From contig JANNQV010000025.1 in the NCBI GenBank assembly GCA_031400935.1, positions 1 through 64,000 of the forward strand: a stretch of 64,000 nt of DNA. The letters are read 5' to 3'. This DNA comes from Armatimonadota bacterium. GTDB lineage: Bacteria; Armatimonadota; Fimbriimonadia; Fimbriimonadales; Fimbriimonadaceae. Below the pieces are notes generated by a model. That model worked only from the letters and a program-made list of their open reading frames with translations. It made no database searches and was not told where the DNA came from. The position numbers were made by a program, and so were the translations under genes. Shown here piece after piece: positions 28,365 to 48,221 of the stretch (positions are counted from its first letter, which is position 1; every line of letters starts with the position of its first letter).

Positions 28365-28581
28365 CAATAGGCATCTTCGATGTGAGGAGCCGACTCTGGT
28401 GTAACTCAAATCTCAGAGTAAGAGTAGCTCCGCGGACCAAAATGCGGAGCCTAGTCGTCTGTCGCTTCAAGTTGGTAACGTGCGTAGCTCCGCGCTCCAC
28501 GATTCGGCGCAACAACTGAATCGAAATGATTTGTCCCAAGCAGAGAAACATGGATTCGAGCCAAAATCTCCTATAAATTCC

Positions 28582-30138
28582 ATGCAACACCAAATCGTTC
28601 TCGTAGTAGATTTTGGGGGGCAATATTCCCAGCTGATTGTCCGAAGAGTTCGCGAATTTGGCATCTACAGCGAAATGGTGCCTTGGACGAAAGCCGAGTC
28701 CTTCATTCGAGGCAAAAGGCCGGATGCGGTCATTTTGAGCGGCGGCCCCCGCTCCGTTCTGGAAACAAAGGCACCATCAATTGAACTGACCAATTTAGAG
28801 GGGATTCCGACGCTTGGAATCTGCTATGGAATGCAGCTCATGGCGCATCAGCTTGGCGGGGAAGTTGAAAGGTCAAGCGACAGGGAATATGGTCTGAGGC
28901 AGGTAAAGGTCAAAGGCCCGACAGTTCATCCGCTAAAGGAATGGCGACTTGTTGATTCATTAGACAATCCGCAAGTTTGGATGTCGCATGGCGACCAGGT
29001 TTTAAGCATTCCTCCAGATTTCGAATGGACAGCGGAAACCGATTCATGCCCATTTGCAGGAATGGAGAGTGAATCGAGGCAAATGTTTGGCGTTCAGTTT
29101 CACCCAGAAGTTACGCACACAATTTCGGGCAGGGAAGTACTACGATCCTTTCTGATTGAAAAGGCGAAACTCACTTGCGATTGGACTGGCGAAAGCTTTG
29201 TCGAAGACTCAGTTAAGCAAATTCAAACACAAGTTGGACCCACTGGAAAAGTGCTGTGCGCGGTTTCAGGAGGAGTGGACAGTTCTGTCATGGCTGCTTT
29301 GCTCATTCGAGCGATAGGCGAGCGAGCCGTTTGCGTTTTTGTTGATCATGGGCTTTTAAGAAAAGATGAAGCCATTGGGGTTGAGGAGACTTTCGCAGGA
29401 CATTTCCATGCAAACCTCAAAGTTTTTCGGGAGCAAGAACGCTTCTTTGGTTCTCTTAAGGGCGTCACTGACCCAGAGCAAAAGAGAAAGATCATTGGTG
29501 AAGAATTTGTCAATGTATTTGACGCTCACGCCACAGAACTTGAGGATTGCGACTTCTTGGCACAAGGCACAATCTATCCCGACGTGGTGGAATCCGGCTC
29601 GGATACGGCGGCCAAGATCAAGAGTCACCACAACGTAGGCGGTATGCCCGATTGGTTCAAAGCGAAACGAACGATTATTGAGCCGCTTCGCTTATTGTTT
29701 AAAGATGAAGTTCGCCAAGCCGGGCGATTACTTCGCTTGCCCGATGAAATGGTGGATCGGGAGCCGTTTCCTGGCCCAGGCTTGGCAGTTCGAATCACCG
29801 GAGAAGTCACGCCTGAACGAGTTAAGATCGTCCAAGAAGCGGATGCAATCTTTCGCGATGAGCTTAGAGCTTCTGGAGCCAACAAGGGGATTTGGCAGTC
29901 TTATGCTGCCTTGCTGGACGTTCGAAGTGTCGGCGTAATGGGCGATGAGCGAACCTATCAGCAGCCAATCGTGCTTCGAGCGGTGGAAAGTGAAGATGCG
30001 ATGACGGCGACGGCAGTTCGAATTCCGTATGAAGTTTTGGAACGGGTTTCGTCGAGAATTGTGAACGAGGTGCACGGGGTCAATCGGGTGTTTTACGATT
30101 TGACTAGCAAGCCGCCAGCCACTATTGAGTTGGAGTAA
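28582..30138 (+). CDS. guaA: GMP synthase (glutamine-hydrolysing)
   Basis: GATase1 region (GICYGMQ) and ATP-pyrophosphatase motif (SGGVDSSV) with a conserved C-terminal dimerisation domain. The start is chosen at MQHQIVLVVDFGGQYSQL. Confidence 0.9.
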   Translation: MQHQIVLVVDFGGQYSQLIVRRVREFGIYSEMVPWTKAESFIRGKRPDAVILSGGPRSVLETKAPSIELTNLEGIPTLGICYGMQLMAHQLGGEVERSSDREYGLRQVKVKGPTVHPLKEWRLVDSLDNPQVWMSHGDQVLSIPPDFEWTAETDSCPFAGMESESRQMFGVQFHPEVTHTISGREVLRSFLIEKAKLTCDWTGESFVEDSVKQIQTQVGPTGKVLCAVSGGVDSSVMAALLIRAIGERAVCVFVDHGLLRKDEAIGVEETFAGHFHANLKVFREQERFFGSLKGVTDPEQKRKIIGEEFVNVFDAHATELEDCDFLAQGTIYPDVVESGSDTAAKIKSHHNVGGMPDWFKAKRTIIEPLRLLFKDEVRQAGRLLRLPDEMVDREPFPGPGLAVRITGEVTPERVKIVQEADAIFRDELRASGANKGIWQSYAALLDVRSVGVMGDERTYQQPIVLRAVESEDAMTATAVRIPYEVLERVSSRIVNEVHGVNRVFYDLTSKPPATIELE

Positions 30139-36995: not shown

Positions 36996-37053
36996 GGTTT
37001 TTGATGTCGCGACCTTCTTCCGAACCCTCGATCCTCAAAGCTCATCTGACTTC

Positions 37054-37212: not shown

Positions 37213-37989
37213 TCAAAACCGGTGTTTAAGTAGCGTCCAAAACGCTTCTGGGGCGTCGGTCCACCGAATCTTCTTCCCTGCCTCTTTTGAGCGCGGATGG
37301 TATTGAATGGGCAATTCCATGATCTTATGCCCGCCTCGAATTGCCTTTGCGGTAACTTCCGGGCAAAACTCGAACCTCATGCAAGTTAGATTCATCCCTT
37401 GAATCACATCGGTTCGAAACGCCTTGTAGCAAGTGGCTTCGTCCTTTACCCTTCGAAAATAAAGAATCGCAACCGCCCACGAAAGCAGGACGTTGACTAC
37501 TTTGTTGGGCAATGCCATGCCAGCAGGGAAGCCGGAGGAAAACCGATTTCCATAAACGACCGTTGCTTCGCCCTTGAGTATCGGCGCGACAATCACTGGA
37601 ATCTGCTCCGGCGCATATTCCAGATCGGCGTCTTGTACGATGGTTGCTTTGCCATTGCAAAAGGGAAGCGCCTTTCGAATCGCCTCGCCTTTTCCCGTTT
37701 TGCTCTCACATTCAACTAGAACGATGCGCTCACCATAGGTTCGAAGTATCTCGCCGGTTCGATCTGTTGAACCCGCATTGACGACTACGACTTGAGTGGA
37801 AATTGGCAATGCAAGGAGGCGATCAACGACTTCGCCGATCGTTGCCTCTTCGTTATATGCGGGCACGACAATGGAAACATCATGAGACCCTCGATCCTTG
37901 CTCCGCTGTGAGGATCGAGGGATCGGTTGCTGGCTCAAGCGAGCACCATAGCTTCTTTGCCCCGGAAATACTCGCCAAGCCGAAGGCAC
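37213..37989 (-). CDS. Family 2 glycosyltransferase (dolichyl-phosphate mannose synthase-like)
   Basis: VSIVVPAYNEE...DAD GT2-A motifs. The annotated start overlaps the carB-C 3' end by 55 bp, so the true start is uncertain. Confidence 0.7.
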   Translation of the reverse strand: MPSAWRVFPGQRSYGARLSQQPIPRSSQRSKDRGSHDVSIVVPAYNEEATIGEVVDRLLALPISTQVVVVNAGSTDRTGEILRTYGERIVLVECESKTGKGEAIRKALPFCNGKATIVQDADLEYAPEQIPVIVAPILKGEATVVYGNRFSSGFPAGMALPNKVVNVLLSWAVAILYFRRVKDEATCYKAFRTDVIQGMNLTCMRFEFCPEVTAKAIRGGHKIMELPIQYHPRSKEAGKKIRWTDAPEAFWTLLKHRF

Positions 37990-39596
37990 GATGATTTGGA
38001 GGGATCGGCAAATATCTCAAGCGCATCTGCCAAAGCTTCAGCGGTGTCAATGCTTGTTATGCAGGCAACACCGATTTCTATGCAAGCCCTTCGGATTTGA
38101 GCTGCTTCGCGTTCGGCTTGCTTGTGAGTGCTAGGCGAATTGATGAGAATGCTGATTTCGCCTTGCATGATTCTGTCAAGAAGATTCGGCGAGCCTTCGC
38201 TGATTTTCATCACCCAAAGGTTTTCGATTCCAGCTTGTATTAGGGCGTCATGCGTTCCGCCAGTGGCGGCAATTTTGTATCCTTGATTGGCGAATGTTCG
38301 TGCAATCTGGACAGCTTTTTCCTTATCGTCATCTTTCACGGAAATGAGAACGTATCCATCGCCTTTGAACTGAATTCCGCTCGCGATCATGGCCTTGTAC
38401 AAAGCGGCGTTGAAGTGGTGGTCAATCCCCATGATCTCGCCTGTTGATTTCATTTCTGGGCCGAGGCTGGGTTCGACTTTTCGGAGTTTTTGGAAGCTGA
38501 ACACGGGTGCCTTGACTGCGAAGAGTACGGGTTCTGGAAGGACAGCTTTTCGTTCAATGAAATCGCTTTCTGGAACAACATAGCCCTTTGCCGATTCACT
38601 GCTAGAGGGTTCCAAGCACCAAAGTCCGCTTTGATAACTAAGGTCTGTAAGCTCTTCTCCCATCATGCAACGAGTTCCGAGGTCTACCATTGGGATTCCG
38701 GTGACTTTGCTGAGAAAGGGCACGGTCCGACTCGCACGCGGATTGACTTCAAGGACGTAGGCAATCTCGTTTTGAATGACAAATTGGATATTCATTAAGC
38801 CTTTGATCTTCAATGCTCGTGCAATTTTGCAAGCACTTTCAATCATTTGGGATTGAACTTCCAAAGTAAGTCCGACGGCTGGATATACTGCCATCGAATC
38901 GCCGCTATGAACTCCCGCGCGCTCAATGTGCTCCATGATTCCAGGAACTAAGGTTGATTCTCCATCGGAAATCACGTCAACTTCAGCTTCAACCCCTAAG
39001 AGGTATTGGTCAACGAGCACCGGTTGCCCTTCGCTTGCGGATTCAGCTTCTCCATAGAATTCGCGCAATTGCGCTTCGTCGTATACAATTTCCATTGCTC
39101 TTCCGCCCAAAACAAAACTTGGGCGAACGAGAACTGGATAGCCAACGCTGTTAGCGATCTCGACTGCTTGACTTAGGGATCGAACGGCTTTTCCTTTCGG
39201 GCGCGGTACGTTCAATTCTTCGAGCAAAGCGTCGAACTGCTCCCGATCTTCTGCCATAGCTATGGATTTGGGTGAAGTGCCGAGAACTCGAACTCCAGCA
39301 TCTTGGAGCGGCTGAGCTAGGTTAATTGCGGTTTGTCCGCCAAACTGGCAAACGACGCCGATGGGCTTCTCATGATTTACAACCTGAAGAACATCTGGCA
39401 GGGTAACAGGTTCAAAATAAAGCCCGTCAGAGGTGTCGAAGTCTGTTGAAACGGTCTCGGGATTATTGTTAATGACGATCGCGCGATAGCCGATCTTTTC
39501 GAGAGCCCAAACGCAATGGACGCAAGAGTAGTCGAATTCAATACCTTGACCGATTCGAATCGGCCCGGAGCCAAGAACAAGAATCGTATCGGGCAT
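37935..39596 (-). CDS. carB: Carbamoyl-phosphate synthase large subunit, C-terminal half (second ATP-grasp plus MGS-like domain)
   Basis: MPDTILVLGSGPIRIGQGIEFDYS matches the start of the second CarB repeat. C-terminal MGS-like domain (GYKIAATGGTHDAL). Complements the separately encoded N-half at 40483..42030. Confidence 0.8.
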   Translation of the reverse strand: MPDTILVLGSGPIRIGQGIEFDYSCVHCVWALEKIGYRAIVINNNPETVSTDFDTSDGLYFEPVTLPDVLQVVNHEKPIGVVCQFGGQTAINLAQPLQDAGVRVLGTSPKSIAMAEDREQFDALLEELNVPRPKGKAVRSLSQAVEIANSVGYPVLVRPSFVLGGRAMEIVYDEAQLREFYGEAESASEGQPVLVDQYLLGVEAEVDVISDGESTLVPGIMEHIERAGVHSGDSMAVYPAVGLTLEVQSQMIESACKIARALKIKGLMNIQFVIQNEIAYVLEVNPRASRTVPFLSKVTGIPMVDLGTRCMMGEELTDLSYQSGLWCLEPSSSESAKGYVVPESDFIERKAVLPEPVLFAVKAPVFSFQKLRKVEPSLGPEMKSTGEIMGIDHHFNAALYKAMIASGIQFKGDGYVLISVKDDDKEKAVQIARTFANQGYKIAATGGTHDALIQAGIENLWVMKISEGSPNLLDRIMQGEISILINSPSTHKQAEREAAQIRRACIEIGVACITSIDTAEALADALEIFADPSKSSCLRLGEYFRGKEAMVLA

Positions 39597-39749
39597 GCAA
39601 GTCCAATTGTGACTCATGCCTTGCTCGCGACGCTTGGATGGCTTGTATGGATTGTATAGATTCTATGGAGGATGCGGAATGCAGAATGCAGATTTGAAGA
39701 GCTACAAAGTTATGAAGCAAGTACTTAGGCAATTCAATCAAATAGCTGT

Positions 39750-40496
39750 CTAATGAAGCTTGACCAACGGGAAGACTTCGACATCAACGCCCTGACAAAA
39801 GATCACGTGCTCAATCTTTCGGTCTGGTAGCCCAATGGATTGGGCCAAGTCTGTTTCGAACCGCTCTAAGGATACGTTGGCTAGTTGGTATGGCTTGTGA
39901 TGAACTTGGCCCAGCATCATTGTTCCGTTTGAAAGTGTATAGAGTTGATATCTTTCAACGAGCCAAAATTCAAATGTTCCAGGTGCAGCCGAATGGAAAT
40001 CGGTCTCGTGGTCATATTTGAGAGTCATCGAAGCATGAGGTTCGTCGAGCCTTCTAATTCTGTAATCAATCGTTTGGCCGCTCAAATGAACTGCCATATC
40101 TGAATGCAAATAATTTAGCCCGAAGAAGTTTTTGGCATACTCACAAGCCAGCCATCTTGAAGCATCGAGTGAAAAGAACCAAACTCCTGGATCCATGCCG
40201 TTTCGATGTACATAGGTTCTAACATTTGTTTCCGGAAATGCGGATAGCCACGGAATTGCTGGCAACCCAGGATATCGAATGCTGTTCATCGTGAAGGCAA
40301 CTATGCCAATCCAAGCTTGCTCGACTCCATTTGCGTCTGGAAATGTGTCAATTTCAAGCTCAAGTGGAACGTGATTTCTCAGCATATCGGGCGAGACAGG
40401 ATAGTGGAGAAAGCATAAGTCTCGCCAAGATTGCAGCATCACTGGCTTCCCAATTGGCCGTGAACGCATTTGCAGATACTTGCTAATCGGCAGCAT
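39750..40496 (-). CDS. DUF2071 (YqjF-like, acetoacetate-decarboxylase-fold) protein
   Basis: 248 aa with length and motifs ([17 protein letters not shown]) consistent with DUF2071. It lies between the two carB halves and overlaps the carB-N 3' end by 14 bp. Confidence 0.6.
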
Positions 40497-42030
40497 CGTT
40501 TTCTTCGCCTACCGTTGCATAGAAGTAGGGGGTGTGTGACTCAAATTCTGCGGCGCATGTGTCAACCATTTTGTAAACTTGATTGGGCTGATGTTCAATG
40601 AGGGTATTGTGTTCATCATCAATTAGGTTCTGAAGTTTAGATAGGAACCACTTGTCAACTTTGCAAAGTTTGTTTACTTCGTCAATGCTCCAACCTCTCC
40701 GAAGGCCTTCTGCGATTGCCCATAGTCGTTCGTCTGTAGGGATTCTGATGGCACTTCTAAGTGCTTCATCCCGCATGGCCTCGAATTTCTCGTGTCTGAG
40801 GTCCTTCTGCTTCACTTCCAAGCCTCGAATAGCCTTCATCAGCGCAGATTCAAAATTCCTGTCAATCGCCATGACCTCACCAGTTGCCTTCATTTGAGTG
40901 AAGAGAGTGCGATCGCCACCAGAGAATTTGTCAAACGGCCAACGGGGGATTTTCACTACACAGTAGTCAAGCGCAGGTTCAAAACACGCCTTTGTTGTTC
41001 GAGTGACCTCGTTTTCAATCTGGTCTAAGGTCTTACCAACGGCAATTTTTGCGGCTACTCGAGCGATTGGGTAGCCGGTCGCCTTAGAAGCGAGGGCTGA
41101 GGATCTTGAAACTCGCGGATTGACTTCGATAATGTAATAGTCAAAGCTGTCTGGATTCAGGGCCATCTGGACGTTGCAGCCACCTTCAATGCCGAGAGAA
41201 TTGATGATTTTCAATGCGGCGGTTCGCATCATGTGGTATTCAAGATCGCTCAATGTTTGGCTTGGCGCAACAACAATCGAATCTCCTGTGTGAACGCCCA
41301 TGGGGTCGAAATTTTCCATGTTGCAAACGGTTATGCAGTTTCCAGCCGAATCGCGCATCACTTCATATTCAATTTCTTTCCAGCCCAAAAGGCTGCGTTC
41401 CACCATGATTTGGCTCTTCATTGAAAGCTTCAAGCCCTTGCAGCCGATTTCCCAAAGCTCTTCGGGAGAGTAGGCAACACCGCCACCCGTTCCTCCCAAA
41501 GTGTAGGCTGGACGAACGATTCGTGGGTATGCAAACTGGATGGGTCGTCCGCTCTCGCTAGGGACTTCAACAGGCAGAATGGCTCGAAGCTGATCTTCGG
41601 TTTCGACGATAAAGCTCTCAGGAACAGGCTCCTTAATTTCGCGCATGAGAGTTCGAAATTCCTCCCTGTCTTCTGCTTTTCGAATTGCCGAAAGAGGTGT
41701 GCCAAGAACACGTACATTGTTTCTCTCAAGAATTCCAGCATCGGATAGCTGGATCGCCAAATTGAGGCCAGTTTGTCCGCCTAAGGTGGGTAAGAGGGCG
41801 TCTGGCTTCTCCCGAATTATCACCCTTTCACAAAAATCAACGGTCAACGGTTCGATGTAAAGAGCATCCGATACTTCCGGATCGGTCATGATCGTTGCTG
41901 GATTTGAATTGATCAGGACGACTTGATGGCCTTCTTCTCGAAGGCTTTTGCAGGCTTGAGTTCCTGCGTAGTCAAATTCGGCGGCTTGTCCGATTACGAT
42001 GGGTCCCGAACCGATAACAAGCACCTTCAT
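40483..42030 (-). CDS. carB: Carbamoyl-phosphate synthase large subunit, N-terminal half (first ATP-grasp plus oligomerisation domain)
   Basis: [52 protein letters not shown] is the canonical CarB N-terminus. 515 aa. It ends after the oligomerisation domain at its own stop codon. Confidence 0.85.
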
Positions 42031-42053
42031 TCAAAAGCGAATTATATCATTTT

Positions 42054-42160
42054 TGGGGATCGGGAAGTGGAGTGTGGAGAGTGGTGCGTGGGGAGAGGGT
42101 GTACAGCAATCAACCAATAACCAACAACCAATAACCAATAACCAACAACTGACAACCAAG
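42054..42160. repeat. Composite dispersed repeat: G-rich GGGAAGTGGAGTGTGGAGAGTGGTGCGTGGGGAGAGGGTG joined to ACCAATAACCAACAACCAATAACCAATAACCAACAACTGACAACCAAG
   Basis: Read directly. Both halves have relatives elsewhere in the window (51591.., 57761.., 22102.., 32360..). Confidence 0.5.
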
Positions 42161-42167
42161 TACCGAT

Positions 42168-43262
42168 CTACCGTCGCCGCGGGATCATTCTTCTTCCAAA
42201 CATCATTCCACCCTGTTGGAAACTGTCAACACCATCAATCGGCGTCCAAAAAACAGATTGTCGCAAACCTGAGCTTAGGAACAATGCGAGGCGGCCACCG
42301 CCATCAAAATTCACTCGATACACGCCGTAATCATCAATTGAGCCGCTCAAAACCGTAAATGCAACCTGGACTCCAGTATGACTTGGCGATGGGCCGTACT
42401 CATCGCGAGTGTCAGTTGTTAGTCTAGTAGCTGTCGAGCTAGCAATGGCTGGTACGGAATAGATATCGAAGTTTCCATTTCGGTCAGTAGCAAAATAAAT
42501 GGTCGAGCCATCTTTGCTCCATTGCGGATTGATGTCGTCAGCTCCGTTGAGCGTCAAATTTACGAACCCTGTGCCATCCAAGTTCAACAGCCCGATATCT
42601 GCCTTGCCGCCAACAATTCTGGAGATTGCAAGCTTGTCACCTGTTGCGTTTACAAACGCTTCTTCAGCATCGCCGATTCTTAGCAAACCGCTTCCGTTCG
42701 TATTGATCGTGTAGACCCCAAAATCGCCTTCAGTTGCCGAAGCCGTGAAAACAATCTGGCTCCCATTTGGAAGGTATTGAACAGTCCCAACGTAAAGGAA
42801 ATTACTGGTAGTGAGTCGAGACGAACCAGAAATGGTAGGATTTGCGCCCCGGAAAAGGTCATAACGAGGATTTGACAAGCTCGAAGTGTAAAAGAAAGCG
42901 TATTGAGTGACGGGCAAATTTGGAGTCGCAACAGGAATGTTTTGGGTCAAATTGGCGAATGGGGTAACTGATGTTCCATCGGAATTCATGAATTTGACGG
43001 CTGTCCCAGAGCCATTTACGTCGCTAAAGAAGACCTTGTCGTCAGGAAGTGCCGATCCACCACCAGAAGTTGTGGAAGTCGTAGAGGTAGTGGATGTGGT
43101 CGAAGTTGTGGAAGTTGTAGAAGTTGTAGAAGTGGTTGAGTTGGTAGAGGTAGTTCCGGTTGTGCCTCCTCCCCCGCCGCCACATCCAATAAGGATGGCA
43201 AAAAGCAACGCAACGATAAAAGCAATAATTGGGCTGTACGATCGGAACCTGGCGATTTCCAT
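42168..43262 (-). CDS. Lipoprotein with a (TTS)n linker and TolB-like PD40 beta-propeller repeats
   Basis: Lipobox LIGCGGG. TTSTNSTTSTTSTTSTTSTTSTTSTTSTTS linker encoded by a 9-bp tandem repeat (43072..43165). PD40 motifs (DGSTIYFATDRNGNFDIYSV). The track ORF opens at 43316 with a TTG start; the ATG at 43262 is preferred. Confidence 0.6.
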   Translation of the reverse strand: MEIARFRSYSPIIAFIVALLFAILIGCGGGGGGTTGTTSTNSTTSTTSTTSTTSTTSTTSTTSTTSGGGSALPDDKVFFSDVNGSGTAVKFMNSDGTSVTPFANLTQNIPVATPNLPVTQYAFFYTSSLSNPRYDLFRGANPTISGSSRLTTSNFLYVGTVQYLPNGSQIVFTASATEGDFGVYTINTNGSGLLRIGDAEEAFVNATGDKLAISRIVGGKADIGLLNLDGTGFVNLTLNGADDINPQWSKDGSTIYFATDRNGNFDIYSVPAIASSTATRLTTDTRDEYGPSPSHTGVQVAFTVLSGSIDDYGVYRVNFDGGGRLALFLSSGLRQSVFWTPIDGVDSFQQGGMMFGRRMIPRRR

Positions 43263-43342
43263 TGGATGATATTTAGACACATTCAGGGTGTGGAAGTGTT
43301 CGGCAAACAACGTCAATCTTTGAATATTCGTAGACTAACCTA

Positions 43343-43393: not shown

Positions 43394-45943
43394 CTAGTTG
43401 CAGATTATTTTCTTTACAACGAAATTGTCAATCGCAGCTTCAGTAACCCCATCGTTCGGGTTGTCCGTTGCCATGAACCTTACAACCATGTTGTTCGAAG
43501 TTGAAACAAAAGCACCGACTCGAAAGCTCTTTCGAATCCACGAGTTGTTTCCTGTTCCTGTGACCGTTTCAATGGTCGTCCAAGATGCTCCACCGTTGTT
43601 GGATATTTGAACTGTGAATACGTCAGGAACTCCATTTACTGAGTAGAACCACCGGCTGTATTCGATTATGCCTTCGCTTCCGCTAAGGTCGAATACGGGT
43701 GACTTTAGTTCAGTTGGACCTCCATCAACATCCGCCGCTCCAACTGCCCCGCCAACGACTCCTTGGCCTGTGAAGAAGCAGTTTGCACCAGTATCTGTGG
43801 AATCGTTTTCCGGTTGCGCAGGAACGGATCCGTTAACGGTTCCGATAGGATCGCCTCTTATCCAAGCCCCGGCCGAAAGTGCGGTGTTGGTTACTGTCCA
43901 AGGATTTGCAGCTTCAAACGTATCTGTGAATATGGTCGTGGTGGACAATCCAAGGATATAGCTCATGGGTGCCGATGCACCGCCAGCTGGAAAGAACACG
44001 GTATGCCCCTGATCATCTTGAACAGAGATATAGTAATCCACTTGAGAACCGCAGTTAGATTGATCTATTCCGCCCCACATAAAGCCAGGGTCGTTGTATT
44101 CAAGCATAGTTGTCTGATCCCATGCACTGCCATTTATTCGAAAGTTGATTCGAATGGATGGGATTATTGGATTCGATACGTTGGATCGAACTTGAAACCT
44201 CATGGGATGGTAAATATCAACGTTTGGTTGATAGACGACAAACCCCGATGGCATCGAAATTGGAACGAAAGTCAGCCATTGCAAAGCAGGAGCGGTTAAG
44301 CCTTTGAATCCGAATCCAAATGCGATGTCATCGTAATGGGGGGTTCCGTTACCTAGGTTCGCGTCATTGTCATCAAGAGTGAGGACATCAACCGTTAAAC
44401 CAGGTGTGATTCCAGGAGGATGCAATAGAATTGAATTGACTGCGTAATTTCGCATCAATCCCAATCCAATAGCATGTCCTATTGTTGTGTCCATTTTCCG
44501 AACGGTCTCCCAGAACGCGCCGCTAACAATCATGCCAGCGGTGTGAACTTCAGAACCTGCGTTCTCTGGATAGTGAATGGTGTTAATAGCATTTCGTAGC
44601 GGGCCAGTTCCAAATCCTTGAAAGTCAACACCTAAGAGAGGAGTGTCGCCAAGCAAGGAAGCAATTACATCGCCCATGCCCTCTCCATAGCCGCCCTGTC
44701 CAGTTCCAGCACGGTTAATGATGAAATGGCCGTATTCGTGGTAAATAACCGTTGAATAAGCAGTGTTCGGGCAAGAACCACCAGCATTGAAGAAGTTGAT
44801 CGTCATGTTTCCGCTGTTGAAGTTTGCGTTGCAAGTGGAAGCCTGATTTACGTTGGTAGTCAGCGAAATGTCAATACCTGGAAAAGCTGGGCTCATGGCT
44901 TTCGTGAAGTCATGAACTACGTGTGTTTGAAGATAAGCATTCACCTGAGCGACATCGAATTGAGCCAATCCGGCAGCATAGACGATATTGTTCGGTCCTG
45001 GAGGCGTTACGCTTGTACTTGAAGTTAAAGGAACTCCTTGCGCAGGCACAACTGTCGAATATCGGCCTACTAATCCTGAAGTCACTGTTACCGGAATTGC
45101 CCCTCCGTTTGCGATCGTGTAGTTTCCATTTACATCAGTGTAAGCAAAATTGCCGCCAGTGATACTGACTCTTAGGTGCGGCAAATTTGCCAATACTTCT
45201 GGATAACCGGGCCAATCTGGCATCAAGCCTGGGGAAGTCCAACCTTTTACTGAGCCTGACACGTCAACCTCGAGGACTTCGTTGCGGCGCTTTAGGATTT
45301 GTCCGGAAACAGCATCAACCCAAATCGTAGATGCTAGGTCGGTACTGTAAGCATTTCCGGTTGCCATGAATTTCCAAGCCAAGTGCTGGGCTGTTTCTCC
45401 GAGCCAAACTACAAGAATCGGCGCTGTAAAGGTAGTGTAAAGCGGATCGTTTTGCCGGAAATTCAAAACTGCTTTTGAAGCTGAGATTCTAACTTTTGGC
45501 AATGAACTGGTTACACTTCGACCATTCGCGCTTGCCAAAACAATTGGGTTTCCAAGTTGATTTCGAACAAGAATTGTCAAAAAACCGTTTTCGACGGGCA
45601 CTCCGCCCGCGACCTCTTGAAAATAGACGGCTGTAAATTTGCCGTTTGAAACATCTTGTGATCCGGTTCCGATGAATTCGCCTTCATTTGGAAGAAATAA
45701 ATCAGAGTATGACTTTACAAAATTTAATGCGGCCTCTTCTGGCGTGTATCCGCCGCCGAAAGGTGCCCCAAAAACCCTTTCGATGTTCGAGCCGCTAAAC
45801 AAAAATTGAACCTCAGGCTGGGTTCCACGCAGTTGCGACATCGCATCTTGTTGTCGCGTTACCGCATCCGATTGAGCTTGGGCAAATGTTGTCGTTGCCA
45901 GTGCAATAACGACAGCATAAAACCCGAATCTATTGATTCGCAT
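43394..45943 (-). CDS. Secreted zinc metalloprotease (thermolysin/fungalysin-like HExxH...GEGxxD) with a C-terminal beta-sandwich module
   Basis: Signal peptide. HEYGHFII followed by GYGEGMGD (Glu-zincin third-ligand motif). The C-terminal roughly 120 aa weakly resemble the shared module of the 8227..9279 and 34040..35590 proteins (NNSWIRKSFRVGAF; IDNFVV). Confidence 0.65.
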   Translation of the reverse strand: MRINRFGFYAVVIALATTTFAQAQSDAVTRQQDAMSQLRGTQPEVQFLFSGSNIERVFGAPFGGGYTPEEAALNFVKSYSDLFLPNEGEFIGTGSQDVSNGKFTAVYFQEVAGGVPVENGFLTILVRNQLGNPIVLASANGRSVTSSLPKVRISASKAVLNFRQNDPLYTTFTAPILVVWLGETAQHLAWKFMATGNAYSTDLASTIWVDAVSGQILKRRNEVLEVDVSGSVKGWTSPGLMPDWPGYPEVLANLPHLRVSITGGNFAYTDVNGNYTIANGGAIPVTVTSGLVGRYSTVVPAQGVPLTSSTSVTPPGPNNIVYAAGLAQFDVAQVNAYLQTHVVHDFTKAMSPAFPGIDISLTTNVNQASTCNANFNSGNMTINFFNAGGSCPNTAYSTVIYHEYGHFIINRAGTGQGGYGEGMGDVIASLLGDTPLLGVDFQGFGTGPLRNAINTIHYPENAGSEVHTAGMIVSGAFWETVRKMDTTIGHAIGLGLMRNYAVNSILLHPPGITPGLTVDVLTLDDNDANLGNGTPHYDDIAFGFGFKGLTAPALQWLTFVPISMPSGFVVYQPNVDIYHPMRFQVRSNVSNPIIPSIRINFRINGSAWDQTTMLEYNDPGFMWGGIDQSNCGSQVDYYISVQDDQGHTVFFPAGGASAPMSYILGLSTTTIFTDTFEAANPWTVTNTALSAGAWIRGDPIGTVNGSVPAQPENDSTDTGANCFFTGQGVVGGAVGAADVDGGPTELKSPVFDLSGSEGIIEYSRWFYSVNGVPDVFTVQISNNGGASWTTIETVTGTGNNSWIRKSFRVGAFVSTSNNMVVRFMATDNPNDGVTEAAIDNFVVKKIICN

Positions 45944-46124
45944 AATTCCTCCTATCTAACCGCCGCCCCGGTGGGCGTCACAGATATAGTCCTATTTTAG
46001 CGGCTAATTAGTTCGGATCGTGTGAGCTTTTTTCAAAATACTAGAATTCTTTGCTGAGAACCTTCAAAACCCGGCAAAATTGCCGACGATACCAATAAGG
46101 CCGCAATGTGCCTTGTTTGAATAT

Positions 46125-48221
46125 ATGAAGCAACTTCAGAATCTTCTCAAGCATACAGATCTGCTCTTTGGAGTGGGACTCGTTGTCGTTGTTGCAATTT
46201 TAATTTTGCCATTGCCCCATTGGGCATTGGACATGGGGCTTGTTGTGGCAATTGCATCGGCTGTCATCATCTTGCTCAGCTCGGTAAACGTGACCGATCC
46301 GCTTCAATTTTCTGTTTTCCCTTCGCTCTTGCTCGTTACGACGCTTTTTCGGCTTGCGTTGAGCATCGCCGCAACGAAACTCATTCTGGGTACTGGCCAA
46401 GCCGGGGCTGTCATCGAAACGTTCGGTAACTTCATCATGGGTGGCGACTTTATCGTCGGCGTTGTGGCGTTTCTGATCCTTGTCATTGTTCAATTTATTG
46501 TAATTACCAATGGTGCTGGACGTGTTTCAGAAGTTGTAGCTCGATTTACCTTAGATGCAATGCCAGGCAAGCAGATGGCGATTGACGCCGACCTTGCCGC
46601 AGGCTCGATTGACGAAGACCAAGCCAAGGAACGTCGAGAAAATGTAAAGCGTGAAGCCGATTTCTATGGTGCGATGGACGGCGCATCCAAATTTGTAAAA
46701 GGCGATGCAATCGCTTCGATTCTAATCATCATTATCAATATCATCGGCGGCTTTGCCGTTGGGTTCATGAAGGGCCAAGGCGACGCCTTGACGATCATGA
46801 AGACTTACACAATTCTAAGCGTCGGCGAAGGACTCGTTTCGCAGCTTCCGGCTTTGCTCATTAGTACCGCGAGCGGTTTGCTTGTCACCCGTTCAGGGCA
46901 ACAAAGAAGCATGGGCGCCGAAGTCATCGGCCAAATGCTAGGCCAGCCTAAAGCACTCACTTATGCTGGCGGAGCGCTCGCAGGAATGTCGCTGGTGCCA
47001 GGATTTCCAACGGTCATCTTTCTCATCGCTGCGGCGGGCTGTTTTGGAATCGGGCAGTTTATGGAGAAAACTCCTGGTGCTCGAAAACTCGTTGGTGCGG
47101 AAACTATGGACGAAAAGAAGGCAGACGCAAAGCTAGTGGAAGCCGCGGCAAAGCAAAGCGTTCCGCAGGGACCGGATTCAGTCTTGCCACTGCTTGCCGT
47201 TGATCCCCTAGAAATCGAAATCGGGCACGGCTTGACCAAACTTGCCGATGCCCGGGTTGGCGGAGATATGTCGGAACGGGTTACCTCAACCCGAAAACAG
47301 ATCGCATTAGAACTCGGGTTCGTAATGCCGACCGTTCGAATTCGCGATTCCATTCATTTGAAGAGTACGGAATACGCGATCAAAGTTCGCGGCGAAGAGG
47401 TTGCAAGGGCTGAAATCATCCCGAATATGCACCTTGCCATCTCTAGCGGGGAAGTGTTTGGCTCGGTTCCAGGAATAACTACAAAAGACCCTGTTTTTGG
47501 ACTCGATGCAATATGGATTGACCCAGCCAACCGAGAAACCGCCGAGCGATCTGGATATTCAGTAATCGAGCCTTCAGCGGTCATTACAACTCATTTAGGA
47601 GAAGTTGCCAAGGCCGCGGCATCCGAATTGCTTACAAGGCAAGACGTTTTCAAGCTCATCGAGAACGCGAAATTGCAAAACGAAAGCGCAGTTACCGAAC
47701 TCATTCCAAATGTTCTCACTGTTGGTGATGTGCAAAAAGTCCTTCAGCACCTTCTTCGAGAGCGAGTTCCGATTCGAGACATGGTCACCATTTTGGAAAC
47801 CATGGCAGACTTTGGCACACGCGTCAAAGACCCAGATCAGCTAGGCGAACTCGTTCGCGCAAACGTCGCCCGAACGATTACGCGCCAATTTGTAGACCCC
47901 ACGAACAAGCTTGCCTGCATCACTCTTGACCCAGCCCTTGAAAGAGATTTGGTTGAAAATGTAAACCTGACGAACTTCGGCTCAATGCTTGTCATCACTC
48001 CAGAGCAACAGCGCGACCTCATGGAATCCATCCGCGCAGAGGTTGACCGCGCCAATGTGCAAGGCTTCCATGCCGTTCTTCTTTGCGGAAACCAGCTTCG
48101 CCTTCCTCTCAAGAGGCTGGTTGAAAAGCAGCTTCCAACCCTGGCAGTCATGGCGTACAACGAAGTGGCAGAAACGGCAGAAGTGGAATTCATAGGGCAG
48201 CTAAAAGCCTTCGCGGCGTAA
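46125..48221 (+). CDS. flhA: Flagellar biosynthesis protein FlhA
   Basis: Canonical FlhA motifs (MPGKQMAIDADLAAGSIDEDQAKERRENVKREADFYGAMDGASKFVKGDAIA). The start is chosen at MKQLQNLL. Confidence 0.9.
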   Translation: MKQLQNLLKHTDLLFGVGLVVVVAILILPLPHWALDMGLVVAIASAVIILLSSVNVTDPLQFSVFPSLLLVTTLFRLALSIAATKLILGTGQAGAVIETFGNFIMGGDFIVGVVAFLILVIVQFIVITNGAGRVSEVVARFTLDAMPGKQMAIDADLAAGSIDEDQAKERRENVKREADFYGAMDGASKFVKGDAIASILIIIINIIGGFAVGFMKGQGDALTIMKTYTILSVGEGLVSQLPALLISTASGLLVTRSGQQRSMGAEVIGQMLGQPKALTYAGGALAGMSLVPGFPTVIFLIAAAGCFGIGQFMEKTPGARKLVGAETMDEKKADAKLVEAAAKQSVPQGPDSVLPLLAVDPLEIEIGHGLTKLADARVGGDMSERVTSTRKQIALELGFVMPTVRIRDSIHLKSTEYAIKVRGEEVARAEIIPNMHLAISSGEVFGSVPGITTKDPVFGLDAIWIDPANRETAERSGYSVIEPSAVITTHLGEVAKAAASELLTRQDVFKLIENAKLQNESAVTELIPNVLTVGDVQKVLQHLLRERVPIRDMVTILETMADFGTRVKDPDQLGELVRANVARTITRQFVDPTNKLACITLDPALERDLVENVNLTNFGSMLVITPEQQRDLMESIRAEVDRANVQGFHAVLLCGNQLRLPLKRLVEKQLPTLAVMAYNEVAETAEVEFIGQLKAFAA

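What the first reader, a model, noticed from the sequence alone, without database searches (positions are those of the whole stretch)
37935..42030. carB split into two genes with a DUF2071 gene between the halves
The N-terminal half of CarB (first ATP-grasp plus oligomerisation domain, 515 aa, 40483..42030) and the C-terminal half (second ATP-grasp plus MGS-like domain, about 554 aa, 37935..39596) are separate ORFs, each with its own start and stop. Each half begins with the canonical MK/MPxxILVLGSGPIxIGQ motif, so this is not a frameshifted pseudogene. A DUF2071/YqjF-like gene (39750..40496) sits between them and overlaps the carB-N 3' end by 14 bp. A GT2 glycosyltransferase overlaps the carB-C 3' end. 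Split carB is known from a few deep-branching taxa (for example Aquifex and Methanocaldococcus), but an intervening, translationally overlapping gene is unusual. Either DUF2071 is functionally tied to carbamoyl-phosphate synthesis or an insertion disrupted an ancestral fused gene.
Basis: partly seen in the sequence, partly recalled or inferred. Interest (0 to 1): 0.6.

Follow-up and report, generated by a model that had tools for sequence, protein, structure and literature searches.

The report
Split carB operon carrying DUF2071 passenger
The large subunit of carbamoyl-phosphate synthetase really is encoded as two intact genes with a DUF2071 gene between them, but this split is an old trait of the whole bacterial group (Armatimonadota), the genes between the halves differ from genome to genome, and nothing yet shows DUF2071 works with the enzyme.

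Summary
On the minus strand lie carB-N (40483-42030, 515 aa), DUF2071 (39750-40496, 248 aa, its ATG 14 nt inside carB-N), carB-C (37935-39617) and a GT2 glycosyltransferase. Both halves keep the CarB ATP-grasp motifs, and the break falls at E. coli residues ~555/560.

It is neither an artefact nor a pseudogene. The window lies in Armatimonadota, class Fimbriimonadia. The 120 closest protein clusters to each half are all stand-alone halves, including Fimbriimonas ginsengisoli Gsoil 348. Chthonomonas has the same breakpoint.

The content of the gap varies:
- DUF2071 alone (this window);
- DUF2071 plus a secreted 203-213 aa protein;
- two TPM-domain genes;
- a methyltransferase plus a 327-aa protein;
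- halves unlinked, or carB fused.

DUF2071 is an acetoacetate-decarboxylase-like fold without an invariant lysine, under purifying selection. It follows carB-N in three different genomic contexts, but it is absent from four other Fimbriimonadia carB-N loci and from 0 of 80 other DUF2071 loci.

Best reading: an Aquifex-type three-chain CPS whose operon carries a tightly coupled, lineage-specific passenger gene. A functional DUF2071-CPS link remains possible (~15%).

The parts
42041..42049 (-). Extended -10-like element TGATATAAT, with 10 nt between it and the carB-N ATG. It is a possible promoter giving a near-leaderless mRNA.
   Evidence: Read directly from the sequence. The consensus scan did not list it and instead listed a weaker site at 42229-42202. 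Function is inferred, not shown.
40483..42030 (-). carB-N, 515 aa: the carboxyphosphate-synthetic ATP-grasp half plus a shortened oligomerisation domain. It ends 9 residues after the conserved TPYFY motif.
   Evidence: One search aligns residues 3-473 to E. coli CarB 10-473 and residues 479-513 to E. coli 519-553, so the equivalents of E. coli ~474-518 are missing. The ATP-grasp motifs [18 protein letters not shown] and [18 protein letters not shown] are intact.
39750..40496 (-). DUF2071 (PF09844) gene, 248 aa. Its ATG lies 14 nt inside carB-N, which suggests translational coupling.
   Evidence: One search gives E 7.6e-64. The N-terminal 20 residues are conserved in homologues, which supports the ATG at 40496. 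The AF2 model has pLDDT 95.7. Foldseek finds the acetoacetate-decarboxylase-like fold at TM ~0.6 and 9-14% identity. dN/dS is ~0.09 against L165.
39618..39749 (-). 132-nt spacer with short tandem repeats (TTGTATGGA x4 at 39634-39669, ATGCAGA x3 at 39672-39692). This is where the two closest relatives carry an extra 203-213 aa secreted-protein gene.
   Evidence: One search finds no trace of the extra gene in the window, and the ~60 nt upstream of carB-C are conserved with L165. No promoter, terminator or Rfam match was found here.
37935..39617 (-). carB-C, 560 aa (553 aa from the ATG at 39596): the carbamoyl-phosphate-synthetic ATP-grasp half plus the MGS-like allosteric domain.
   Evidence: One search aligns residue 10 to E. 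coli 560. The motifs LVRPSFVLGGRAMEIVY, AGVHSGDS and EVNPRASRTVPFLSKVTG are intact. There is a ~37-aa insertion after E. coli residue 876.
37213..37938 (-). GT2 glycosyltransferase (DPM1/AglJ-like). Its TTG start overlaps the carB-C stop by 4 nt, and it is conserved downstream of carB-C in L165 and L082.
37888..37921 (-). Perfect 11-bp hairpin (CCCTCGATCCT-N12-AGGATCGAGGG) inside the 5' end of GT2. It lies within a 42-nt in-frame insertion that L165 lacks.
   Evidence: RNAfold -27 kcal/mol for the 75-nt stretch. A third copy of the arm lies at 37025-37035.

Best explanation
The window comes from a member of Armatimonadota, class Fimbriimonadia, close to Fimbriimonadaceae. In this group the carB gene underwent an old fission in the linker between the oligomerisation domain and the second ATP-grasp domain.

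The two products, CarB-N and CarB-C, most likely assemble with CarA into a three-chain glutamine-dependent carbamoyl-phosphate synthetase, as shown biochemically for Aquifex aeolicus. CarA is encoded elsewhere in this genome.

In this lineage the two halves still share one transcription unit: carB-N, DUF2071, carB-C, GT2. DUF2071 is translationally coupled to carB-N through a 14-nt overlap, and GT2 to carB-C through a 4-nt overlap.

DUF2071 is a real, selected gene encoding an acetoacetate-decarboxylase-like protein of unknown chemistry. It is best seen as a lineage-specific passenger occupying the gap between the halves. The same gap holds other unrelated genes in other Armatimonadota.

Shown: the gene structure, the intact motifs, the clade-wide split, the variable gap content and the fold. 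Inferred: complex formation, co-transcription, translational coupling and the passenger status of DUF2071.
For: - **Structure and domains:**
- **Breakpoint and motifs:** the break maps to E. coli residues ~555/560 with all ATP-grasp motifs conserved.
- **Selection:** dN/dS is 0.02-0.09 for all four genes against L165 (dS is saturated, so the ratios are rough).
- **Clade-wide split:** all 120 best clusters for carB-N are 494-896 aa and all 120 best for carB-C are 537-646 aa. They include F. ginsengisoli Gsoil 348 (complete genome CP007139), where the C-half stands alone.
- **Same breakpoint in another class:** Chthonomonas and other Armatimonadota share it.
- **Variable gap content:**
  - DUF2071 alone (window);
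  - DUF2071 plus a secreted 203-213 aa protein;
  - two TPM-domain genes;
  - a SAM-methyltransferase plus a 327-aa protein;
  - halves unlinked;
  - fused carB.
- **No mobile-element signature:** no terminator between the genes and no inverted or direct repeats flanking DUF2071.
- **Biochemical precedent:** Aquifex CPS.A + CPS.B + GLN form one active complex (PMC6022934, citing Ahuja et al. 2001).
Against: - No expression or protein-interaction data exist, so co-transcription and complex formation are inferences.
- carA is not in the window.
- DUF2071 directly follows carB-N in three different genomic neighbourhoods, even where carB-C has moved away. One bacteroidete, Halpernia humi, has a DUF2071 gene 92 nt downstream of a fused carAB. 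This recurrence is more than a pure passenger model strictly requires.
- An internal promoter in the 132-nt spacer cannot be excluded.
Confidence: 0.7

Rival explanations
1. DUF2071 is functionally tied to the split CPS. It could be an assembly or scaffold factor for the two half-subunits, or an enzyme acting on a CPS-related metabolite. On this view, selection keeps it translationally coupled to carB-N.
For: - carB-N is followed immediately by DUF2071 (overlaps of -14, -14, -1 and -4 nt, or a +34 nt gap) in the window, L165, L082, L083 and L168. These represent three different flanking contexts, two of them without carB-C nearby.
- The linked DUF2071 proteins are not obviously monophyletic in a rough NJ tree.
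- Halpernia humi has carA, a fused carB and then DUF2071.
- DUF2071 is under purifying selection.
Against: - Four other Fimbriimonadia carB-N loci lack DUF2071 (L084, L169, L170, L172).
- In the genome of L170 the DUF2071 gene lies ~55 kb away (L091).
- DUF2071 homologues closer to the window's than those of L083 and L168 are not near carB.
- None of 80 metagenomic DUF2071 loci has carB within 6 kb.
- Only 1 of ~76 non-Armatimonadota carB loci has a DUF2071 gene nearby.
- Unrelated genes (a secreted protein, TPM domains, a methyltransferase, GT2) occupy the same operon positions.
- Overlapping reading frames resist rearrangement, so the pair would persist neutrally.
- No known acetoacetate-decarboxylase-like enzyme uses carbamate or carbamoyl phosphate (my knowledge).
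Confidence: 0.15
2. A recent insertion of DUF2071 or a mobile element broke a previously fused carB in this genome, so the locus is a disrupted or decaying gene.
For: Fused carB does exist in the group: P0005 (Fimbriimonadaceae, HZH99255.1) and L004. In relatives, mobile REP/RAYT units sit in frame inside carB-N.
Against: - The same breakpoint occurs in more than 100 clusters and in another class without DUF2071.
- Both halves are under strong purifying selection with intact motifs.
- No repeats or transposase flank DUF2071, and the window has no RAYT homologue.
Confidence: 0.03
3. The split is an assembly or sequencing artefact of a normal fused carB.
For: None was found.
Against: The arrangement is identical in independent assemblies: a Logan contig of SRR20217196 and an NCBI 72.6-kb contig. 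Syntenic relatives come from JGI and ENA assemblies. The complete genome of the cultured type strain F. ginsengisoli also has a stand-alone C-half.
Confidence: 0.01

Closest known systems
[quoted passage not shown] 2001, as summarised in PMC6022934)
   Same: The large subunit is encoded as two separate genes, each holding one ATP-grasp half. Here the break lies in the inter-half linker, at E. coli residues ~555/560. A three-chain complex with CarA is expected.
   Different: In this window the halves lie in one apparent operon with an unrelated gene between them. In Aquifex the halves are unlinked (from memory, not checked here). The N-half here has a shortened oligomerisation domain lacking E. 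coli ~474-518. No biochemistry exists for any Armatimonadota enzyme.
Methanocaldococcus jannaschii split carB (the COG0458 label reads 'split gene in MJ')
   Same: carB is split into N- and C-terminal sections. From memory, the locus tags MJ1378 and MJ1381 imply two genes between the halves, so an interrupted arrangement would not be without precedent.
   Different: It is an archaeal lineage with different intervening genes. The locus tags could not be verified with the tools (one search found no papers).
DUF2071 / YqjF family (PF09844), part of the acetoacetate-decarboxylase-like clan
   Same: Strong Pfam match. The predicted fold matches ADC-like enzymes Sbi_00515, MppR, Swit_4259 and ADC. 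The [10 protein letters not shown] motif is invariant.
   Different: No lysine is invariant in the alignment of 22 homologues. This agrees with PMC4520260, which reports that the Schiff-base lysine of ADC is not conserved in DUF2071. The chemistry is therefore probably different and remains unknown.

Membership tests
Split-gene CPS large subunit (Aquifex type) | Two separate complete ORFs, each homologous to one half of CarB | tested here: met
   The N-half matches model positions 8-471 and the C-half 555-1051 of TIGR01369. Both score above the NF003671 cut-off (771.7 and 650.9 against 599).
Split-gene CPS large subunit (Aquifex type) | Break at the boundary between the oligomerisation domain and the second synthetase domain, not inside a domain | tested here: met
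   The N-half ends at about E. coli residue 555 and the C-half begins at about 558-560. The breakpoint is the same in 10 relatives.
Split-gene CPS large subunit (Aquifex type) | ATP-grasp catalytic and nucleotide-binding motifs intact in both halves | tested here: met
   The alignments to E. coli CarB show the R129, R169, E215, H243, Q285, E299, N301 and R303 region and the R715, H788, Q829, E841, N843 and R845 region conserved. Residue numbering is from memory of the E. coli enzyme.
Split-gene CPS large subunit (Aquifex type) | A carA (glutaminase subunit) partner in the genome | tested here: inconclusive
   No carA lies in the 64-kb window; the only hit is guaA at 28480-30138. Relative L083 has carA 2 kb upstream of carB-N.
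Split-gene CPS large subunit (Aquifex type) | The halves and CarA form one complex with glutamine-dependent CPS activity | not testable with these tools
   This needs biochemistry. The structure tool does not accept multimers.
DUF2071 (PF09844) | Full-length match to the family profile above the gathering score | tested here: met
   215.7 bits against a cut-off of 27, covering profile positions 2-212 of 212.
Acetoacetate-decarboxylase-like enzymes (ADC, MppR, Sbi_00515) | ADC-like double-barrel/cone fold | tested here: met
   The AF2 model has pLDDT 95.7. Foldseek gives E 3e-11 to 1e-8, TM 0.55-0.65, for 24 ADC-superfamily chains and nothing else significant.
Acetoacetate-decarboxylase-like enzymes (ADC, MppR, Sbi_00515) | Conserved Schiff-base-forming active-site lysine | tested here: not met
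   No lysine appears among the invariant or nearly invariant columns of alignments A1 and A2. PMC4520260 states that Lys115 is not conserved in PF09844.
Disrupted gene / pseudogene | Relaxed selection, lost motifs, or close relatives with an intact gene | tested here: not met
   dN/dS is 0.02-0.03 for both halves. The motifs are intact. The closest relatives are all split.

The most novel reading that the evidence does not exclude
DUF2071 is an accessory component of the split carbamoyl-phosphate synthetase in part of the Fimbriimonadia. It might help the two half-subunits assemble, or act on a labile CPS intermediate or by-product. That would explain why it stays translationally coupled to carB-N in three different genomic contexts and turns up once next to carAB in a bacteroidete. 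If true, this would give the first functional handle on a large family of unknown function.
Probability: 0.15. Interest if true: 0.6.

Novelty: new member of a known kind. Interest (0 to 1): 0.3.

Why it matters
Split carB is usually cited for a few thermophiles such as Aquifex and Methanocaldococcus. Here it is the normal state of a whole mesophilic bacterial lineage, including a cultured type strain, yet both halves are annotated simply as 'large subunit'.

The lineage offers a natural series of one essential enzyme: fused, split and adjacent, split with different inserted genes, and split and unlinked. That series is useful for studying gene fission, operon decay and subunit assembly.

For annotation, it is a warning that neither half is a pseudogene. 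For DUF2071, it offers a weak, testable lead but no function.

Tried and rejected
- **Genome-contig scan with carB-N:** It returned mostly fused carB from other phyla and no Fimbriimonadia. It was still useful for four other Armatimonadota and as a background set.
- **Metagenome-contig scan with the DUF2071 profile:** it also saturated, returning only 35-49% identical homologues, none near carB.
- **PDB sequence search with the DUF2071 profile:** no significant hit, so fold comparison was needed.
- **First structure job:** It was rerun with alignment A2.
- **Rfam over the operon:** nothing found, so there is no known pyrimidine or arginine leader.
- **Promoter/terminator scan:** counts were at or below the shuffle expectation and were not informative for operon structure.
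- **Repeat search:** no inverted or direct repeats bracket DUF2071, and no RAYT homologue occurs in the window. A recent mobile insertion was therefore rejected.
- **REP hairpin motif from L169:** not enriched in the window.
- **Literature:** nothing on split carB in Armatimonadota, nothing on DUF2071 function beyond fold assignment, and the M. jannaschii locus tags could not be verified.
- **NJ trees:** too poorly resolved to distinguish one ancestral carB-N-DUF2071 linkage with losses from several gains.
- **AlphaFold-multimer of the halves with or without DUF2071:** not possible with the tool.


Full report
**1. What is in the sequence**

On the minus strand there are four consecutive ORFs.
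- carB-N runs 40483-42030 (515 aa).
- A 248-aa gene runs 39750-40496. Its ATG lies 14 nt inside the end of carB-N (ATGCTGCCGATTAG).
- After a 132-nt spacer, carB-C runs 37935-39617 (560 aa, or 553 aa from the second ATG at 39596).
- A GT2 glycosyltransferase follows. Its likely TTG start at 37938 overlaps the carB-C stop by 4 nt.

- carB-N has the pre-ATP-grasp domain, the ATP-grasp domain and part of the oligomerisation domain (CarB model positions 8-471).
- carB-C has the second pre-ATP-grasp and ATP-grasp domains plus the MGS-like domain (positions 555-1051).
- The middle gene is PF09844 DUF2071 (E 7.6e-64).

**2. Mapping on E. coli CarB**

Against the E. coli structure sequence:
- N-half residues 3-473 align to E. 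coli 10-473, and residues 479-513 align to 519-553.
- C-half residue 10 aligns to E. coli 560.

The break therefore sits in the linker between the oligomerisation domain and the carbamoyl-phosphate-synthetic domain. The nucleotide-binding and catalytic motifs of both ATP-grasp domains are conserved.

There are two peculiarities. The N-half lacks the equivalents of E. coli ~474-518, the second part of the oligomerisation domain. The C-half has a ~37-residue insertion after E. coli residue 876.

**3. Source and reliability**

The closest homologues are named Fimbriimonadaceae, Fimbriimonadales, Fimbriimonas or Armatimonadetes. Identical proteins occur on a 72,626-bp NCBI contig and on a 25,050-bp Logan contig of SRR20217196. 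The arrangement is not an assembly artefact.

**4. The split is a clade trait**

- The 120 best 90%-identity clusters for carB-N are all 494-896 aa.
- The 120 best for carB-C are all 537-646 aa. They include the cultured type strain Fimbriimonas ginsengisoli Gsoil 348, where the C-half stands alone with no carB-N within 10 kb in the complete genome.
- Among the 150 best 50%-identity representatives of the whole protein universe, about nine in ten are ~1000-aa or longer fused CarB, and only about a dozen are half-length. The split is uncommon overall but fixed here.
- The breakpoint is the same in all loci read. N-halves end 8-14 residues after TPY(F/Y)Y, and C-halves start 3-10 residues before LVLGSGPIRIGQ. 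This includes Chthonomonas and two other Armatimonadota.
- Fused forms also exist: an Armatimonadota MAG (L004) and a Fimbriimonadaceae fragment (P0005, HZH99255.1).

**5. What lies downstream of carB-N or between the halves varies**

| Locus | Arrangement |
|---|---|
| Window / L001 | N > DUF2071 > C > GT2 |
| L165, L082 | N > DUF2071 > secreted 203-213 aa protein > C > GT2 |
| L172 | N > TPM > TPM > C |
| L170 | N > TPM..., no C within 6 kb; that genome's DUF2071 is ~55 kb away |
| L083 | carA ... N > DUF2071 > 5'-nucleotidase, no C |
| L168 | N > DUF2071 > M20 peptidase > 5-oxoprolinase genes, no C |
| L084, L169 | N alone |
| Chthonomonas L003, Armatimonadota L005 | N > SAM-methyltransferase (overlapping) > 327-aa protein > C |
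| L002 | N > URO-D-like gene, no C |

L165 carB-N is 94% and L082 carB-N 84% identical to the window's. The window has no trace of the extra secreted-protein gene they carry. The ~60 nt upstream of carB-C are conserved with L165, so the window most likely lost that gene.

An intervening, often overlapping gene is thus the rule in this phylum. Its identity is not conserved.

**6. DUF2071**

- It is a real gene. Its N-terminus is conserved from the first ATG. dN/dS is ~0.09 against L165, though dS is saturated.
- It evolves faster than its neighbours: 67% amino-acid identity against 94% for carB-N and 88% for carB-C.
- The AF2 model is confident (pLDDT 95.7). It matches only the acetoacetate-decarboxylase-like superfamily (Sbi_00515, MppR, Swit_4259, ADC) at TM ~0.6 and 9-14% identity.
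- No lysine is invariant. This agrees with the published note that the Schiff-base lysine is absent from this family (PMC4520260). Invariant polar residues include E89, T90, N91, R93, Y95, E181, R182, Y183, H200 and Y203. The chemistry is unknown.

Linkage to carB:
- Positive at five loci in three different neighbourhoods (window, L165, L082; L083; L168).
- Negative at four other Fimbriimonadia carB-N loci.
- Negative at two closer DUF2071 homologues (L166 at 52% identity and L167 at 47%).
- Negative at all 80 metagenomic DUF2071 loci.
- Negative at ~75 of ~76 carB loci outside Armatimonadota.
- The exception is Halpernia humi, where a bona fide DUF2071 gene (E 5.8e-52) lies 92 nt downstream of a fused carAB. 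Related Weeksellaceae loci lack it. With ~1500 flanking genes inspected, one such hit is not significant.

**7. Mechanism proposed**

The enzyme is most likely an Aquifex-type CPS built from CarA, CarB-N and CarB-C (precedent: PMC6022934). In this lineage the halves are probably co-transcribed. No terminator-like site separates them, and a TGATATAAT element lies 10 nt upstream of the carB-N ATG.

DUF2071 is probably translated by ribosomes terminating on carB-N, and GT2 by ribosomes terminating on carB-C. Overlapping frames cannot be separated without damaging a gene. That alone can explain why the carB-N-DUF2071 pair outlives the DUF2071-carB-C link. I therefore treat DUF2071 as a passenger (confidence 0.7 for the whole model) and give a true functional link about 0.15.

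**8. Rivals**

A recent disruptive insertion and an artefact are both rejected, for the reasons given under the rival explanations.

**9. Novelty**

I found no paper describing split carB in Armatimonadota or any function for DUF2071. The phenomenon is a new, large set of members of a known kind (split CPS), with an unusually variable gap. It is modestly interesting for the evolution of gene fission but not surprising mechanistically.

**10. Side observation with more novelty than the finding itself**

In several Fimbriimonadia, carB-N carries a ~240-290-aa insertion that is in frame and free of stop codons.
- It sits in the oligomerisation domain, between [13 protein letters not shown] and ...PTDERLW.
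- It encodes an IS200-like Y1 (RAYT-type) transposase with an intact HUH motif.
- It is bracketed by inverted pairs of REP-like hairpins, CATGACCGTCCCGGTCATG and TTCGACCGTCCCGGTCGAA, which are themselves translated.

The window has no such element in carB. It does have a 42-nt in-frame insertion containing a perfect 11-bp-stem hairpin at the 5' end of GT2.

Noticed in passing
L169:7216-8037 (carB-N of a Fimbriimonadia MAG, GCA_046598515.1); proteins P0013, P0106, P0118, P0120, P0364: A complete RAYT-type (PF01797, HUH motif NHVH intact) transposase unit is inserted in frame, without stop codons, inside the oligomerisation domain of carB-N. It is flanked by inverted doublets of REP-like hairpins (CATGACCGTCCCGGTCATG and TTCGACCGTCCCGGTCGAA) that are themselves translated. 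At least nine 90%-identity clusters carry it. The four insertions compared (P0013, P0106, P0118, P0120) are only 45-48% identical to one another.
   Followed up: partly
P0005 (HZH99255.1, Fimbriimonadaceae, 2315-bp contig) and L004:9624-12986: Fused carB exists within the same group. In P0005 the two halves are joined by an unusual ~25-aa linker (ETEHDLLHAREGHNTHERDARAT) that resembles translated REP-type sequence. This suggests a secondary re-fusion or a read-through of a former intergenic repeat. No DNA was available to check.
   Followed up: partly
window 37888-37921 (also 37025-37035): A perfect 11-bp-stem hairpin (CCCTCGATCCT-N12-AGGATCGAGGG) sits in frame in codons ~4-18 of the GT2 gene, directly after the carB-C stop. 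It lies within a 42-nt insertion that relative L165 lacks. A third copy of the arm lies just downstream of GT2, so the gene is bracketed by inverted copies. The motif occurs 4 times in the window against 0.9 expected by chance.
   Followed up: partly
window 42107-42159 and 39634-39692: Short tandem repeats occur in the two non-coding stretches of the operon: (CAATAAC/CAACCAATAACCAA)n upstream of carB-N, and TTGTATGGA x4 plus ATGCAGA x3 in the DUF2071-carB-C spacer. No Rfam family matches and their function is unknown.
   Followed up: partly
window 40483-42030 and 37935-39617: The oligomerisation domain of carB-N is truncated, lacking E. coli ~474-518. Across Fimbriimonadia the stretch between LIDVE and VFKMVDTC varies from ~15 to ~250 residues. 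carB-C carries a ~37-aa insertion after E. coli residue 876.
   Followed up: partly
L031:13261-13968 (Halpernia humi DSM 21580): A bona fide DUF2071 gene (Pfam E 5.8e-52) lies 92 nt downstream of a fused carA-carB pair. It is not seen at the carB loci of related Chryseobacterium, Cloacibacterium or Apibacter.
   Followed up: partly
L003:3194-5014 and L005:9370-11435: In Chthonomonas and a related Armatimonadota MAG the same carB breakpoint holds a SAM-dependent methyltransferase, overlapping the carB-N stop by 11 or 4 nt. It also holds a 327-aa membrane/coiled-coil protein of unknown function.
   Followed up: partly
L165:6780-7391 and L082:9326-9967: A 203-213 aa protein with a signal-peptide-like N-terminus and no Pfam match lies between DUF2071 and carB-C in the two closest relatives. 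It is missing from the window. A weak homologue lies upstream of carB-N in L169.
   Followed up: partly
window 42168-43316 (tandem repeat at 43065-43143): The gene upstream of carB-N encodes a PD40 beta-propeller protein with a (TST)n low-complexity tract encoded by a 9/18/36-nt tandem repeat. The neighbouring 849-aa protein (43394-45943) has no Pfam domain but is syntenic in L165 and L082, next to flhA (46080-48221).
   Followed up: no
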